From the human T2T-CHM13v2.0 reference genome, Homo sapiens, in assembly GCF_009914755.1 (NCBI RefSeq), contig NC_060935.1: a stretch of DNA of 64,000 nt; one strand, given 5' to 3'. Both the position numbers and the translations under genes were made by a program. The notes under the pieces were generated by a model that had not been told where the DNA came from, made no database searches, and saw only the letters and a list, made by a program, of their open reading frames with translations. Positions within the stretch are counted from its first letter, which is position 1, and each line of letters opens with the position of its first letter. This document shows, piece by piece, positions 30,200-36,181 of the stretch.

Positions 30200-30342
30200 C
30201 TCTCTGTGTCTCTTCTGCCACTCCCAGCCCTCATGAGAACCCTTTGTAGCTGGGCCACAGCTCTGTGATGCTGGCCACAACTCTAGTCTCCAGTGTACAT
30301 GCCCGGGGCCCAGCTGCCTGAGGGAGGAGTGGGCTTGAAGTG
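30200..30342 (+). promoter_or_regulatory. Relic promoter/5' UTR of the SPATA31-family pseudogene
   Basis: 'gctgggccacagctctgtgatg...ctagtctccagtgtacatgccc' directly before ATG 30343 resembles the recalled SPATA31 upstream region. Confidence 0.5.
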
Positions 30343-30525
30343 ATGGGAGGAATCTCTCTCTTTTTCTGAAGAGGCCTAGAGTCTCATGCTGAGGTCAAGT
30401 CTGACTCCCTGGAGCACCAATTCTATCTTTTACTTCTTATGGGGTGAACTCCTCCTTCTGTTTCTGTAAGTCCTACAGAGGAATCTATTTCGATCACTAT
30501 TGAAGAAAATTGGAGACATAGAAAG
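30343..30525 (+). pseudogene. SPATA31-like exon 1 relic (hydrophobic N-terminal segment)
   Basis: ATG at 30343, frameshifts, in-frame TAA at 30467-30469; ends 'gacatagaaag' with no GT donor following. Confidence 0.75.
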
Positions 30526-30562
30526 CCAAGGTCCAATCCCAGCAAAGAATGAATCTTGTCCT

Positions 30563-31306
30563 TGTAATCAGCCAATGGGCTCTTCTTGCCCACTGCACAG
30601 ATACAGCTGATTCACTGAGACAGCTGTATTGCAGTAAAGAAAGGGTTTAATTAATGCAAAGCTAGCTACATAAAGGACAGGAGTTTATTTCTCATATCAG
30701 CCTCCCCTGAATATTCCGAGACTGGGGTTAAGGATAATTTGTTGTGCAGGGGACTAGGGAACAGGTGCTGCTGATTGATTGGGGCTGAAACCATGGGGGC
30801 ATGGAAAGTAGTCCTTGTGCACTGAGTCAGCCTCTGGGTAGGGCCACAGGACCAGATGAGTCACAAGTCACGGGTCCAGGTGAGAGTCAGCTAGTCACCA
30901 GAAATGCAAAAGTCTGAAAAACATCTCAAAAGACCAATCTTAGGTTCTACAATAGTGTGTTATTTGTAGAAGTAATTGGGAAAGTTACAAATCTTGTGAC
31001 CTCTGGAACAAAGGCTGGTTTAATATGCCTACATCTTAGCAGAATTCAGGCCCCTCTCATGATCCTAATCTTATAGACTTATATTAGTTTTTATAAAGGC
31101 AGTTTTCATCCCTGAACGAGGAGGGGCTAGTTTTGGGAAGGGCCATTTTCATCCTTACTTTAAGGGTAAACTATAAACTAAATTCCTCCCAAAGTTAGGT
31201 TGGCCTACACCCAGGAACGAACAGGGATGGCTTAGAGGTTAGAAGCAAGCTGGAGTCAGCTATGTCAGATTTCCCTTAGCGTCACAGTTTTGCAGAGGTG
31301 ATTCCA
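30563..31306 (-). mobile_element. LTR8A/B-like ERV1 solo LTR in pseudogene intron 1
   Basis: Reverse complement 'ctctgcaaaactgtgacgctaagggaaatctgacatagctgactccagcttgcttctaacctc' through 'gggcaagaagagcccattggctgattaca'; two TGAGTCA sites. Confidence 0.88.
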
Positions 31307-31537
31307 TTTTTCTTCCTGCTTTTTGAAATTATTTGGTGCAGAGAAACATCTGGGATTGGAACTCTCAGGAAAGAATAGAACAATATTCTAAGGAACAGGC
31401 AGGGCAGGGCAGGGCAGGGGTTGGCAATAGAAGCTGTGAGCTTCTATTGAGTCTCACAGACTACATCTGAGGATGGCAGAAAGCTCCAGGGTAAGATGCC
31501 AAAATGGGTGATTCAGTGATCATAGATTGGATTATTA

Positions 31538-31836
31538 TTATATTATTATTATTATTAGTCAGAATCTTGCTCTGTCACCCAGACTGCAGTGTAGTGGCAC
31601 AGTCTTGACTCACTGTAACCTTTGCTTCCCAAGCTCAAGCGATTCTCCTGCCTCAGCCTCCCGAGTAGCTGGGATTACAGGCACACAGCACCATGCTCGA
31701 CTAATTTTGTATTTTTAGTAGAGATGGGGTTTTGCCATGTTGGCCAGGCTGGCCTCGAACTCCTGATCTCAAGTGATCTGCTCACCTCGGCCTCCCAAAG
31801 TGATGGGATTACAGGTGTGAGCCACCACCCCCAGAC
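31538..31836 (-). mobile_element. Alu (Sz/Jb-like) with (TAT)n tail, in pseudogene intron
   Basis: TSD catagattggattatta (31521-31537 and 31837-31853). Confidence 0.92.
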
Positions 31837-32462: not shown

Positions 32463-33133
32463 GTGGTGTATTTCTCCTTCTTTCCTGGTCCTTCTTCCTA
32501 GCATGATCTATGCAAGTCTAGGGTCCCAAGACAGGGCGATGTGGGAGGTGAAACCCACAGGAAAGGTGATGTGAAGGAAAATCTAGGGGTGAGGGATATA
32601 AGGGTTGCTGAAGAGCCAGGGATGTGGGATGTGGCCCTGCCCATCCCCTGCTGGACCCCATGCTGATCCTGGCCCCAACTTAGTGTGAGGCCTGTCTCCT
32701 GCAGGCATAAGGCAAGCTCCTTTGGGAGGGCGGCTTTTTGCAACAGTTGCAGCAAGCTCACTGCTGCAGGTTATGATATGTGACTGTCTGCTGTTGGGGG
32801 AGCCTGGGATGAGGCTGCTCCTGCTGGGTCCCTGGTGGCTTCTGCTGCTCCTTGGCCTGAGCCTGCACAAGCGCTGGCCTCTTTTCCTCCAGGTTCCACC
32901 CCCTCCCCGGGCCCAGCCAGCTTCCACTCTGTTTTGTTCTCTCCTACCCCTTGATGCCTCTCTTCCGCCAGAGCCCTTCTAGCTCAGGACCCCACATTCT
33001 TCACCCCCGTGACTTGACTTCCCCCCTCCTCCCTTGGAGCACACTCAGATCCTAGAGTCTATTCCCCGGCCAGACCCTCTTTGTCTCTGGCCTCCACCTT
33101 CTCGCTGGACCCCCAGGCAGGGACACTCCCTCC

Positions 33134-33662
33134 TGCAGTATTAACTATATTTTCTCACTTTCTGTATTCCTGATGCTCTAGCCTCACTGGTCAGGGCTAG
33201 CCAGTTCTTAGAGGTAGCACATGATTGCCTGTGAGCACCCTTTTCATATACAAACCATCCAATCCACAGCCCATACCTGCCCCCTGCCTCCTTAATCGAG
33301 CTCTCATGGGTTAAGCCAATATTCCCCTGTCCTCGTCACCCCAGGGCCAGGTACCAAACAACTCAGGACAGCCCCTATACCCTGGAGTCCACCGAAATGA
33401 TTCCAACTAGTCAACTCCGAACCTGCTGAGCCTGATGACCCTGCCGTGCCCATGCCTGTCCGCAAAACTCCAGCAAGGGCTCCAGTCCATGCCCTCCTCT
33501 CTCCTTCTATCTCCTGACTGCCACGTGGCTCTGTGTGGTGTGCAGTGCCTCCTGTTCTAGGGATCTCTGGATATAAAAACATCTCCCTTTGTGACAGTCA
33601 TTTCTAGGTCTATGTGTTTTACCACACCTGATTAAAACAAATCCCAGGCACGTTTGAAAGCA
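33134..33662 (+). mobile_element. MER74A/B ERVL solo LTR inserted in the coding exon
   Basis: 'agggctagccagttcttagag', 'tttcatatacaaaccatccaatcc', 'cccagggccaggtaccaaacaact'; TG...CA ends; 5-bp TSD cctcc/cctgc. Confidence 0.88.
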
Positions 33663-34892
33663 CCTGCTCATGTTGGCCTTCTTCTCAGCGTAGATGTCTG
33701 CTAAGGGCGCATTCCTGTCTGCCTCTCAACGTGCTTCCTTCCCTGTCCACAAGAAGCCTCTCTCTTGGACATTCTGCAGCCAGGCATTTGGAGGCCGGTG
33801 ACATCTTCTTCCTCAGTCCTGATATCCAGGAGCTCCTGGAGATATGAGTCAGAGAAAGAGTGGATCTCCAGATTTGGGAGAAGAAAGAAGAGAGGGCAGG
33901 ACCATTTCCCAAAAAACTGAAGCCAGACTGCAAGCTAGATTCTGGGACATCCTTGGAGTCCTTTGCTGACCAACAGGGTCCCAGAGTCCCTCAGTGCTTC
34001 TGGAGCACCAAGGGCAAACCAGAGAAGGGCACTGTCCTTGGCAGCCCCCACGCCATGCCATCTTGTGGGACTGTTTGCAGTGGAAATGGAGCCAGCTCTT
34101 TTGGGGTCTCCTCTCTCTAAAAAGCAAGTCCTGGTGGCTACTGTCCTAGTTTCTGGTAGTAGTTCCCCACTAGAGTTTTCCTTTATTTCTCCAGATCCAA
34201 TTTCAGGCTAAAGAATCCCCCACCCCAGCCTCTGGCACACCCGAAGACACAGCCCCAATCCTTTCCTGGAGCCTTGTGCCAATTGGAGCTCTACTGCAGG
34301 CCTAAGTGCAGCCCCAGACCCCCTTCAGTTCTCTCTCCCATTCCCACTGCCCTCTTCTTCACCCTAGACTAGGGCCAGTGGGATGCCTTCCCTTAGAGTC
34401 CAGAGTGAGGTTCAGTCTCTCACCTTGGCTGACATTCAATACCTGCAATGGCACTGGCTGGAGAAGCAGCTGGAAAGTTTGTGAGGTTCACCCTCTGTGG
34501 TCTCAAGAGTTCAGCAAACCTGTAGCCCTCCAGCCCCTACCTTCCCCAGCAAGCCTGGCGTCCCTGTTCTAGTTGCCAGTCTCCATCCCTCCTGGAGAAC
34601 CTTCTATCCAGAATGACATCTCGAAGCACCTGGGGCACCACCTTCAAAACAGAGTTATCCAACACAGGATCCAGGAGCCTCTGCCACGATGCAACCTCAA
34701 GACACAACCTGGGACATCCCAGCCAAAGGGTGAACATGGCCTCGGGTGGCCCTCTGTGTTTACAGGCCAAGGAGCAAGAATCAAGGGAAGATAGCATTGA
34801 GGGACCAGGAGGCTTCATGAAGGGGTCCAGCTAAGTTTCTGTTAGGGTGGGATCCAGGGAAGGGCCTGGGGGACACTCTGAGGAGGGCCCTA

Positions 34893-34996
34893 GAGCTCAC
34901 TTTCCAGGGGCCTCAGAAAGTTTCCCATGCAGGGCCTGGCAGCTGAGCTCATTTTCCAAGGGCCTTGGAAAATTTCCCACACAGGGCCTGGCAGCT
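34893..34996 (+). repeat. 52-bp tandem duplication inside the pseudogene exon
   Basis: 34893-34944 vs 34945-34996, 7 mismatches. Confidence 0.92.
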
Positions 34997-36181
34997 GACT
35001 CTGAGAAGGAGACAAAAAGGGATTTGGTGAGCAACTCGGAGAAGCAACTGGAAAACAAAGCTGGGGCAAGTTGATCCGGGCTGAGTCCCTGCCCACTACT
35101 CATGATGCACTTGGAAGCTGGAAGCTTGGTGCCCTTGGTGCTCAGGAACGTCACCTGCCTCCCTCGTGGGAGTTTTCCTTCCTTGATCCAGGCCCTGGGC
35201 AGGTGTGGGAAGTCTGTAGGATACGGTTTTGGATGAGACAGACATGGGGCTTCTGGAAAAGCCAAGTCAGTGTCAGCCTCTGGGCAGATCCCAGGCCAAT
35301 GGAAACCAGAGCTGTCTTCCTGGGCGGTGGGTACCCTGGGGTGCAGGTGGACATGCAACCCTCAGCCTCCTCCTAGAGAACCTGAGCCTTAGGTAGGGAC
35401 TTGGTGTATGGGAGGGAAGTCAGCAAGAGGAAGAACTCAAGGTCTGGGCAGAGCCTGCAGATGAGCATTCCTGCAACAACAGGGCTCCCTGCTACCCTGA
35501 GCAAGGATTGAGACAAGCGCCTCATCCTGCAGCTGCCTAGCAGGCTCAGAGGGCTTGAGTTGCCCCAACAGGGATGGGTGGATCAGGCCCCGACCAGGAC
35601 AGACATGCCTGGAAATCTGAGAGGTGCAAAGGGCAGCAACTGTGTCTGGATTCCTCGTTTCAAGTCCACCAGGGAGCCTGTGTCCCCAGCCTGCACCCAA
35701 TAGCGTGGGCCAAGGATGCCAAGAACCTCTGGCCACTCCATCTACTGCCACAGGCTCTGTCTGTCAGGCGGCATGTCTTCTACTCAGCAAGAATGTTCTC
35801 CTCCATCCTCTTCTAGGAAGAAAGGTTCAAAGGAAAAGTATCAATCCATTTAGAGAAGATCTGCAAGTCTCATGCCATCACGCATTCTCTGAAGAGGGTG
35901 GCCTCTCTTTCTCAGAATGAAACATAGAGATTCTTCCCCATGCAGCTGTTTTCTTCTCATAGGAGAGTGGTGTCTTCCTTCTGTGCTGTGTTTGGAACAT
36001 AGGTTTATAGTATCCGAGGGGCTTGAGCTTAGAGGAATTCAGAGCCAGCTTCAGCTCTTACTGAGTGCCTGCTTTGGCTTCTAAAAAAATGGCTGAGGTC
36101 ATGGAGAGAGGTTTCACACCTAACCACTGTTGTGATTTCCTTCATTTGCACCTACTCATATGTCCTATTTTAAAAACACTG

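What the first reader, a model, noticed from the sequence alone, without database searches (positions are those of the whole stretch)
30200..35945. Nearly complete fossil SPATA31/FAM75-family gene hidden among repeats, possibly a lost subfamily
Seen in sequence: short ORFs in shifting frames carry colinear motifs (SQLFWGL.SL.S.SLVA, FWSTKGKPE, ESL*GSPSVV, SFLDP...RFWMRQTWG). They come with real splice acceptors, a hydrophobic first exon and a decayed polyA signal. Established: SPATA31/FAM75/FAM205 are fast-evolving testis (spermatid/acrosome) genes with three short exons and one large exon. Inference: retained introns and promoter make this a genomic paralog, not a retrocopy. From memory its segments resemble different subfamilies (exon 3 FAM205-like, 5' last exon D-like, C-terminus A/E-like), which suggests a deep-branching member that could still be intact in other mammals. 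I cannot tell whether it is already annotated.
Basis: partly seen in the sequence, partly recalled or inferred. Interest (0 to 1): 0.85.

Follow-up and report, generated by a model that had tools for sequence, protein, structure and literature searches.

The report
Old dead SPATA31 gene copy
This is the decayed remains of an ancient extra copy of a sperm-development gene (SPATA31 family) that still shows its original exon and intron layout; it is an ordinary pseudogene, of interest mainly for the history of that gene family.

Summary
Window 30233-35853 (+), T2T chr11:45,476,233-45,481,853, is a dead SPATA31/FAM75 gene. Pfam FAM75 matches 34125-34889 at E 1.7e-18. A family HMM gives 15 hits at E<=1 in the whole 64 kb. 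All 15 lie in the finding, on the + strand, in protein order, from exon 1 to the C-terminus.

It is not a retrocopy. Exon 1 scores E 0.0014 and ends at a GTAAGT donor. Exon 3 with its donor, and the exon-4 acceptor, align to those of D1, D4, E1 and A1 better than 0-1 of about 530 random windows.

It is thoroughly broken: at least 10 frame changes and 25-29 stops per frame, an old repeat inside exon 4, and about 470 middle residues missing.

It lies outside every well-supported clade. Nesting in the human or boreoeutherian D clade is rejected. Its nearest kin are other human fossils, at moderate support. None of the 171 of 172 sampled mammalian proteins that entered the tree groups with it.

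RefSeq annotates nothing here; I could not check GENCODE. "Nearly complete", "FAM205-like exon 3" and "intact elsewhere" are unsupported. Interest is low to moderate.

The parts
30233..30467 (+). Exon 1 remnant. ATG at 30233, four in-frame stops, hydrophobic (transmembrane-like) end SSLTPWSTNSIFYFLWGELLLLFL, then a GTAAGT donor at 30468-30473.
   Evidence: An exon-1-only HMM against all 4050 pieces of the 64 kb window puts 30389-30460 (+) at the top, E 0.0014; the next hit is at 0.37. The family HMM matches positions 17-42 here. Window 30448-30509 is 75% identical over 63 nt to the chr3:2.18 Mb fossil, just upstream of that fossil's exon-4 chain (that fossil's own exon 1 was not mapped). DNA similarity to D1/D4 exon 1 is not significant: 21 of 532 and 34 of 528 random windows score as well.
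30563..31309 (.). Interspersed repeat inside intron 1; family not named because no repeat library was at hand.
   Evidence: A genome search finds about 40 scored copies on many chromosomes at 71-79% identity over about 700 nt, from 3284 first-look candidates. It is not in the masked-repeat list.
31399..31489 (+). Exon 2 candidate, by eye only. Reads GQGRAGVGNRSCELL.., with a donor CAG|GTAAGA at 31489|31490.
   Evidence: Not significant. The exon 2/3 HMM ranks 31458-31490 only 34th in the window. Local DNA alignment to D1/D4 exon 2 is no better than 87 of 532 and 115 of 528 random windows. Indirect support: with the Alu removed, the distance from this donor to exon 3 is about 608 nt, against about 580 nt for intron 2 of D4.
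31528..31837 (+). Alu insertion in intron 2.
   Evidence: Listed as a masked repeat. It is 70-86% identical to Alu copies in the other loci.
32408..32463 (+). Exon 3 remnant, reading ..EAEAAWHLLSLRK. Acceptor is AG; donor is AAAAG|GTGGTG at 32463|32464.
   Evidence: Local DNA alignment to D1 exon 3 plus its donor scores 38; 0 of 534 random windows reach that. Against D4, 1 of 528 does. blastn gives 72% over 74 nt, E 0.006. Alignment A2 shows the same AAAAG|GTG boundary, with similarity running on into intron 3. The protein-level HMM does not pick it out: rank 274.
32464..32703 (+). Retained intron 3, 240 nt (about 300 nt in D4).
   Evidence: Both of its boundaries align to family splice sites.
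32704..35853 (+). Large last exon (exon 4) remnant, from acceptor CCTGTCTCCTGCAG| to the stop TAG at 35851-35853.
   Evidence: The acceptor is identical to A1's (14 of 14) and 13 of 14 to D1/D4. The alignment to E1 runs across the acceptor into the exon; 0 of 533 random windows score as well. Thirteen colinear HMM hits at 33734-35844 (a 14th weak one at 34821-34940). At least 10 frame changes, and 25-29 stops in each frame.
33138..33666 (.). Old interspersed repeat inserted inside exon 4; family not named.
   Evidence: A genome search finds 39 copies on many chromosomes, 66-73% identical over 300 nt or more and up to 81% over short stretches, from 411 first-look candidates.
33734..35253 (+). 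Pre-domain region plus FAM75 domain and the SFLDP..RFW..WG motif (family HMM positions 278-824).
   Evidence: Pfam E 1.7e-18. The best family-HMM pieces score 1.9e-14, 6.3e-10, 6.7e-7 and 9.8e-7. tblastn to D1 covers residues 303-829 of its exon-4 ORF at 27-44% identity.
35254..35411 (+). Junction where family HMM positions 824-1295 (about 470 residues) are missing.
   Evidence: Only about 160 nt separate HMM 824 from HMM 1295. The related fossils at chr9:35.02 and chr3:2.18 Mb keep parts of this region, so a deletion is the likely cause. That step is inferred.
35412..35850 (+). C-terminal region (HMM positions 1295-1418 of 1440).
   Evidence: HMM hits at E 1.7e-5, 0.09 and 0.009. P0145 residues 1335-1416, the end of that protein, match 35602-35850 at 38% over 87 aa. 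The E1 3' end is 78% identical over 65 nt. LOC100420114 is 69% identical over 347 nt.
35888..36086 (+). 3' flank beyond the stop codon, still similar to the 3' flank of the chr9:35.02 Mb fossil LOC100420114.
Evidence: blastn gives 73% over 204 nt, E 2e-21. That was not testable.

Best explanation
A non-processed, intron-retaining pseudogene of the SPATA31/FAM75 family. It arose as a DNA-level duplicate of an ancestral four-exon SPATA31 gene, on or near the D-type side of the family. The duplication came before the split of the living D1-type and D2-type lineages, and therefore before the radiation of placental mammals. Later the copy lost its function and decayed.

Today it cannot encode a protein. 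It has at least 10 frame changes and many stops. An old repeat sits inside the large exon. Two more repeats sit in the introns. About 1.4 kb of the middle of the large exon is gone.

Shown here: family membership, strand, colinearity, exon 1, the exon 3 / intron 3 / exon 4 boundaries, the breaks, the repeats, and exclusion from the crown clades. Inferred: the time of origin, the time of death (roughly 60-100 million years ago, if the exon-4 repeat marks it), and that the missing middle is a deletion. The locus most likely does nothing now.
For: Family and colinearity:
- Pfam FAM75 at E 1.7e-18, and two stop-free pieces above the Pfam cut-off.
- 15 of 15 family-HMM hits in the 64 kb lie in the finding, on one strand, in protein order.

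Exon and intron structure:
- Exon 1 is the top hit of an exon-1 model, E 0.0014, and ends at GTAAGT.
- The exon 3 donor and the exon 4 acceptor align to those of D1/D4/E1/A1. Only 0-1 of about 530 random windows score as well.
- Intron 3 is 240 nt, against about 300 nt in D4.

Decay:
- At least 10 frame changes and 25-29 stops per frame.
- A repeat inside exon 4, with copies 66-73% identical.

Placement:
- Careful ML tree, 52 rows by 517 columns. The fossil is outside D1-type (100/100, includes sloth and aardvark), outside D2-type (100/99, includes elephant, dugong, pig, rhino) and outside A/B/C/E (80/96).
- AU tests reject joining it to human D (p 5e-56) and to boreoeutherian D1-type (p 3e-63).
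- Identity to all intact proteins is 18-37% over shared HMM columns.
- No second near-identical copy exists in the genome.
Against: - The backbone of the tree is unresolved. Sister-to-D has only 73/85 support with the other fossils in the tree and 54/73 without them.
- A decayed sequence tends to drift towards the base of a tree, so the 'pre-placental' origin could be overstated.
- Exon 2 is not verified.
- DUF4599/PF15371 is not detected by Pfam in the window.
- DNA similarity of exon 1 to D1/D4 is not significant.
- The date of death rests on copy-to-copy identities of a repeat I could not name, and on a recalled calibration.
- No other mammalian genome could be read, so neither synteny nor shared breaks were checked.
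Confidence: 0.85

Rival explanations
1. Unitary pseudogene of a subfamily that is lost in human but still intact in some other mammals.
For: The copy once had the full layout, from exon 1 to the true C-terminus. It lies outside all sampled clades. In the one well-aligned stretch shared with its closest DNA-level relative, LOC100420114, the small insertions and deletions are lineage-specific rather than shared. That stretch is the C-terminus, about 350 nt. This fits copies that were still intact when they separated. The family has a precedent: D2-type is dead in human (D2P) but is represented by predicted proteins in elephant, dugong, pig and rhino.
Against: Of 172 sampled mammalian proteins, 171 entered the FastTree and none falls in the fossil clade. 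None stands out in tblastn: the best are 46.6% over 88 aa and 54% over 37 aa. An old repeat, with copies 66-73% identical, interrupts exon 4, which points to an early death.

The sampling has gaps. Only 120 of 274 hits of the D4 search were listed. The searches depend on shared words and cover named sources only. The third search failed. So the absence is weak evidence.
Confidence: 0.12
2. Processed pseudogene: a retrocopy of a SPATA31 mRNA.
For: Most of the coding sequence lies in one exon, so a retrocopy would look similar over 33734-35850. A short A-run lies at about 36066.
Against: Exon 1 lies 3.3 kb upstream of HMM position 278, whereas a processed copy would need about 0.7 kb. The exon 3 donor and the exon 4 acceptor are both present, 240 nt apart, and align to family splice sites, with similarity running into the intron. 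Similarity to LOC100420114 continues beyond the 3' end of the gene.
Confidence: 0.02
3. A recent, primate-specific copy of a known subfamily (D, A/C or E) that merely decayed fast.
For: D1, D3 and D4 give the best summed tblastn scores among the human paralogues. RefSeq names the related chr9:35.02 Mb fossil a 'SPATA31D1 pseudogene'.
Against: AU tests reject joining it to human D1/D4/D5P (p 5e-56) and to the 12 boreoeutherian D1-type rows (p 3e-63). Young family pseudogenes (D2P, D5P, E2P, B1P, B2P) fall cleanly inside their clades in the same tree, and this one does not. Identity to human D1 is 34% over 474 columns. DNA similarity is about 65-72%, and only in the most conserved stretches.
Confidence: 0.03
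4. One of several copies that were duplicated only after the gene was already dead, so it never worked at this site.
For: Five to six human fossils cluster together, at 73/89 in the careful tree and 0.87 in FastTree. Two of them, chr9:35.02 and chr9:110.06 Mb, both lack 2 nt within the same few bases of the WGLPSLHSE motif.
Against: The chr11 fossil does not clearly share that lesion. It has a 1-nt loss about 20 nt further on, and the position of its other shift is ambiguous. In the C-terminal stretch, its breaks differ from those of LOC100420114. The clustering of fossils may be long-branch attraction.
Confidence: 0.2

Closest known systems
SPATA31 subfamily D (human SPATA31D1/D3/D4 on 9q21; D2P and D5P pseudogenes)
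   Same: Same Pfam FAM75 domain and same four-exon layout. The exon 3 donor and exon 4 acceptor sit at the same places. The FW.(S/T)KGK(L/P)E and QLFWGL motifs are present. D gives the best summed protein similarity among human paralogues. D2P aligns at DNA level over 878 nt at 65%.
   Different: Only 34% identical to D1 over 474 HMM columns. It lies outside both crown D clades. The SFLDP..RFW motif resembles A/E more than D: the D-only HMM scores it E 8.8, against 1.9e-4 for the family HMM. It lacks the long middle part. It is dead, and it is on chromosome 11 rather than 9.
LOC100420114, RefSeq 'SPATA31 subfamily D member 1 pseudogene', chr9:35.02 Mb, between SPATA31F3 and SPATA31G1
   Same: The closest DNA-level relative found. 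It is 69% identical over 347 nt in the C-terminal region and 73% over 204 nt beyond the stop. It is 40% identical over 271 HMM columns. It falls in the same fossil cluster in the trees. It is also an old, heavily broken copy.
   Different: It is annotated by RefSeq, whereas ours is not. It keeps parts of the middle region that ours lacks. Its small breaks in the shared C-terminal stretch differ from ours.
Other FAM75 fossils without a SPATA31-type RefSeq gene (chr9:110.06, chr3:2.18, chr11:134.67, chr5:162.75, chr9:87.68 Mb and others)
   Same: Old, broken, single-strand colinear FAM75 remnants. chr9:110.06 is the most similar row: 44% over 185 columns, and 67-68% DNA identity over about 370 nt. 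The chr11:134.67 Mb fossil also has an exon-1 hit upstream of its large exon.
   Different: They sit at different chromosomal sites. Each keeps a different subset of the protein. The relationships among them are only moderately supported.
SPATA31A/C/E (the 'core duplicon' genes on chromosome 9; PMC5338094, abstract and passages read)
   Same: Same family. The exon-4 acceptor is identical to A1's. The C-terminus and the SFL.P..RFW motif resemble E1 and A-like proteins.
   Different: Those are recent primate segmental duplicates with intact ORFs. This is an old single copy outside that clade.

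Membership tests
SPATA31 / FAM75 family (Pfam PF14650) | FAM75 domain match above Pfam's gathering score | tested here: met
   77.4 bits against a cut-off of 24, E 1.7e-18, model positions 30-305 of 382, read through 6 stops. Stop-free pieces alone score 43.6 and 25.0 bits.
SPATA31 / FAM75 family (Pfam PF14650) | Gene layout: three short 5' exons, the first with a hydrophobic segment, then one large last exon | tested here: met
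   Exon 1 scores E 0.0014 and ends at GTAAGT. The exon 3 donor and exon 4 acceptor align with family splice sites. Exon 2 is not verified. The reference layout was taken from D4.
SPATA31 / FAM75 family (Pfam PF14650) | N-terminal DUF4599 domain (PF15371) spanning exons 2-4 | tested here: inconclusive
   Pfam finds no match in the window. The first bases of exon 4 do align to E1 across the acceptor, and by eye they read GKLLWEGGFLQQL against the family's GQLPDKGGFHQLL.
SPATA31 / FAM75 family (Pfam PF14650) | Conserved C-terminal end of the protein | tested here: met
   HMM positions 1295-1418 of 1440 map to 35412-35844; the best piece scores E 1.7e-5. The last 82 residues of P0145 align at 38%.
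SPATA31 / FAM75 family (Pfam PF14650) | Open reading frame (a working gene) | tested here: not met
   At least 10 frame changes among 13 exon-4 hits, 25-29 stops per frame over 986 codons, and a repeat inside exon 4.
SPATA31 subfamily D (crown group) | Falls inside the D1-type or D2-type clade in a tree | tested here: not met
   It lies outside both starred clades. AU gives p 5e-56 for joining human D and p 3e-63 for joining boreoeutherian D1-type. I did not run an AU test against the D2-type clade, nor for a position as sister to all D.
SPATA31 subfamily D (stem or sister lineage) | Sister to all D in the tree | tested here: inconclusive
   This is the ML position, but support is 73/85 with the other fossils and 54/73 without them. 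FastTree gives 0.79.
Processed pseudogene (retrocopy) | No introns; exons joined as in the mRNA | tested here: not met
   Intron 3 is retained with both splice sites. Exon 1 lies 3.3 kb upstream of HMM position 278.
Unitary pseudogene (intact orthologue in other species) | An intact orthologue at the syntenic site in another mammal | not testable with these tools
   No other mammalian genome was available. As a proxy, none of the 171 of 172 sampled proteins that entered the tree groups with it.

The most novel reading that the evidence does not exclude
This fossil and at least four others in the human genome (chr9:35.02, chr9:110.06, chr3:2.18 and chr11:134.67 Mb) are the remains of a separate, ancient SPATA31 subfamily. 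On this reading the subfamily is sister to D, spread to several chromosomes before the placental radiation, has no working member in human, and keeps an intact member in some non-primate mammal.
Probability: 0.12. Interest if true: 0.5.

Novelty: new member of a known kind. Interest (0 to 1): 0.25.

Why it matters
The SPATA31 family is studied mainly for its recent primate expansion on chromosome 9 and its fast evolution. That is the focus of PMC5338094 and PMC6920530, of which I read the abstract and passages. [quoted passage not shown]

This locus, together with nine other FAM75 remnants that carry no SPATA31-type RefSeq gene, shows that the family was once larger and more widely scattered. 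The remnants lie on chromosomes 3, 5, 6, 9, 11 and 12. The locus adds an annotation and a data point for dating old births and deaths in a reproductive gene family. It has no evident present function and changes no general picture.

Tried and rejected
- An HMM built from 45 D-type proteins only found exon 4 but not exon 1 and barely the SFLDP motif. I replaced it with a 40-protein family HMM.
- PF15371/DUF4599 was not found in the window, neither in the genome search nor on single pieces.
- My first reading of the exon-4 acceptor, at 32890 with 'FHSVLFSPTP' taken as the DUF4599 motif, was wrong. DNA similarity to the chr9:110.06 fossil and the acceptor alignment place the acceptor at 32703|32704. 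The leucine-rich ORF 32722-32982 is an off-frame reading of exon 4, not a first exon.
- Exon 2 has no statistical support by protein HMM or DNA alignment.
- The protein HMM does not pick out exon 3 (rank 274). Only DNA alignment does.
- Looking for an orthologue by protein search. The D4 query gave 274 hits, of which 120 were listed. The E1 query gave 52 hits. tblastn against the window gave HSPs for 113 of 120 and 49 of 52, with no outlier. The third search used alignment A1 and returned nothing at all, not even E1's own relatives, because MAFFT had shredded the short pieces. That blank says nothing.
- Shared disabling changes between this fossil and its relatives. Gap positions changed between the 4-way and 6-way alignments, so I make no claim for this fossil.
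- Rfam gave no match in 29500-36600.
- Paper searches: 'SPATA31' + 'pseudogene' + 'FAM75'; 'SPATA31' + 'unitary pseudogene'; 'SPATA31' + gene family/mammals/phylogen/subfamil. I saw nothing on a chromosome 11 copy in the listings or in the passages I read of PMC5338094, PMC6920530, PMC12807706 and PMC12679747. Supplements were closed. Additional File 1 of PMC5338094, on D and E, might bear on this.
- I could not consult GENCODE, HGNC pseudogene lists or pseudogene.org.

Full report
WHAT IS THERE. The finding lies in T2T chr11:45,476,200-45,481,945. That is about 32 kb from the 5' end of SYT13, in a stretch with no RefSeq gene.

Pfam FAM75 (PF14650), searched in six frames over the whole genome, matches window 34125-34889 at E 1.7e-18, 77.4 bits against a cut-off of 24, with six stops inside. 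Of ten stop-free pieces scanned against Pfam, two pass the cut-off alone (34573-34794 at 3.5e-11; 34383-34484 at 1.6e-5). One is weak and seven give nothing.

I built a 1440-position HMM from 40 intact A-, C-, D-, E-, F- and G-type proteins. I searched it against all 4050 six-frame pieces of the whole 64 kb window on both strands. It gave 15 hits at E<=1. All 15 lie between 30386 and 35844 on the + strand, in protein order from HMM position 17 to 1418. Nothing else in the window matched, which serves as the control for chance.

ANATOMY. The reference layout came from mapping a bonobo D4-like protein on the human D4 gene: exon 1 (residues 1-62), exon 2 (62-82), exon 3 (61 nt), then one large exon.

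- Exon 1 is 30233-30467. It has an ATG, four in-frame stops and a hydrophobic end, followed by GTAAGT. An exon-1-only HMM ranks 30389-30460 first among all pieces of the window, at E 0.0014 against 0.37 for the next hit. DNA-level similarity to D1/D4 exon 1 is not significant.
- Exon 3 is 32408-32463. Local DNA alignment to D1 exon 3 with its donor beats 534 of 534 random windows. Against D4 it beats 527 of 528. The boundary AAAAG|GTG is shared, and similarity runs on into the intron.
- The exon-4 acceptor is 32703|32704. CCTGTCTCCTGCAG is identical to A1's and 13 of 14 to D1/D4. The alignment to E1 continues into the exon, and 0 of 533 random windows score as well.
- Intron 3 is therefore retained, at 240 nt. 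This excludes a processed retrocopy.
- Exon 2 remains a by-eye candidate at about 31399-31489, without statistical support.
- Exon 4 runs to the stop at 35851-35853. HMM hits cover positions 278-824 at 33734-35253 and positions 1295-1418 at 35412-35844. The end of a Tamandua protein aligns to 35602-35850.
- Pfam DUF4599 is not detected.

DAMAGE. Among the 13 exon-4 hits the frame changes at least 10 times, and each frame holds 25-29 stops in 986 codons. Only about 160 nt separate HMM 824 from HMM 1295. So about 470 residues are missing, although the related fossils keep parts of them. Overall, 508 of 1141 positions between 278 and 1418 are covered.

Three repeats interrupt the gene:
- an interspersed repeat at 30563-31309 in intron 1, with copies 71-79% identical;
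- an Alu at 31528-31837 in intron 2;
- an older interspersed repeat at 33138-33666 inside exon 4, with copies 66-73% identical over 300 nt or more.

I could not name the two non-Alu repeats. From recalled calibrations, such identities put the exon-4 insertion at very roughly 60-100 million years ago. That is an inference, not a measurement.

RELATIVES. Human paralogues match at 23-44% in local protein alignments, with D best. Over shared HMM columns the fossil is 18-37% identical to every intact protein. It is 44% identical (185 columns) to a fossil at chr9:110.06 Mb and 40% identical (271 columns) to LOC100420114 at chr9:35.02 Mb.

At DNA level the closest is LOC100420114: 69% over 347 nt at the C-terminus and 73% over 204 nt beyond the stop. 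Next come chr9:110.06 (67-68% over about 370 nt), chr3:40.7 (72% over 186 nt) and D2P (65% over 878 nt).

The careful ML tree has 52 rows and 517 columns, restricted to the columns this fossil fills. I left out five short fossils (chr6:23.6, chr5:162.76, chr3:40.7, J1, chr12:73.6). The tree places the fossil outside every well-supported clade:
- D1-type, 14 rows, 100/100, including sloth and aardvark;
- D2-type, 5 rows, 100/99, including elephant, dugong, pig, rhino and human D2P;
- A/B/C/E, 20 rows, 80/96.

Its ML position is inside a cluster of five human fossils (73/89) that is sister to D (73/85). Without the other fossils it is still sister to D, but at 54/73. AU tests reject joining it to human D1/D4/D5P (p 5e-56) and to the 12 boreoeutherian D1-type rows (p 3e-63). 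Because the D1-type and D2-type clades each hold both afrotherian and boreoeutherian species, the split of this lineage is older than the placental radiation. The caveat is that decayed sequences drift towards the base of trees.

IS IT INTACT ELSEWHERE? I could sample only proteins. The D4 query listed 120 of its 274 hits, and the E1 query gave 52 hits. In tblastn, 113 of 120 and 49 of 52 hit the fossil, with no outlier: the best are 46.6% over 88 aa and 54% over 37 aa. In a FastTree of 190 rows, including 171 of the 172 proteins, none falls in the fossil cluster.

No other mammalian genome could be read. The question therefore stays open, but the exon-4 repeat and the sampling speak against it.

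- 'Exon 3 FAM205-like' is not borne out. D1 and D4 are the only DNA matches, and the F1 and F3 loci in the same search gave none there.
- '5' last exon D-like' and 'C-terminus A/E-like' are fair.
- The promoter was not testable. The polyA signal is plausible only: AATGAAA lies about 65 nt after the stop.

KNOWN OR NEW. RefSeq lists 23 SPATA31-named or SPATA31-described genes and pseudogenes, none of them here. Nine further FAM75 places also lack a SPATA31-type RefSeq gene. My three paper searches, and the passages I read of four papers, showed nothing on a chromosome 11 copy. GENCODE and the papers' supplements could not be checked.

VERDICT. This is a real, old, intron-retaining SPATA31 pseudogene that branches deep in the family. 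It is a new member of a known kind, of modest interest.

Noticed in passing
T2T chr11:134666016-134666843; chr3:2181968-2182786; chr3:40724227-40724754; chr5:162747349-162748384 and 162759097-162759426; chr6:23635148-23635852; chr9:87683150-87683850; chr9:110063520-110064510; chr12:73624842-73625418 (loci L026, L031-L038): Nine more Pfam FAM75 remnants with stops and no SPATA31-type RefSeq gene. They lie on chromosomes 3, 5, 6, 9, 11 and 12. The two on chr5 are 11 kb apart. The chr12 one also matches DUF4599. The chr9:110.06 Mb one lies inside the TRMO gene span on the opposite strand.
   Followed up: partly
L039 (chr9:35.02 Mb, LOC100420114) and L038 (chr9:110.06 Mb), in the WGLPSLHSE motif: Both chr9 fossils lack 2 nt within the same few bases of this conserved motif, relative to D1, D2P and D5P. 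They may therefore descend from an already frameshifted copy. The chr11 fossil does not clearly share the change.
   Followed up: partly
window 30563-31309 and 33138-33666: A genome search shows both stretches are interspersed repeats with many copies. Neither appears in the masked-repeat list supplied for chr11.
   Followed up: partly
window 32722-32982 (+): An 86-codon open frame with a leucine-rich, signal-like stretch (LLLLGPWWLLLLLGLSL). It is an off-frame reading of the start of exon 4, not an exon of its own.
   Followed up: yes
chr9 94.1 Mb (SPATA31D2P, L011) and proteins P0101, P0110, P0112, P0115: Human D2P groups at 100/99 with predicted proteins of elephant, dugong, pig and rhino, in a clade separate from D1/D3/D4. 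This would be a D2-type lineage that is dead in human but apparently kept in other orders.
   Followed up: partly
window 10230-10774, 51567-51861, 58781-59319: RefSeq functional elements (two OCT4-NANOG hESC enhancers and one K562 enhancer tile) lie elsewhere in the window. None overlaps the fossil.
   Followed up: no
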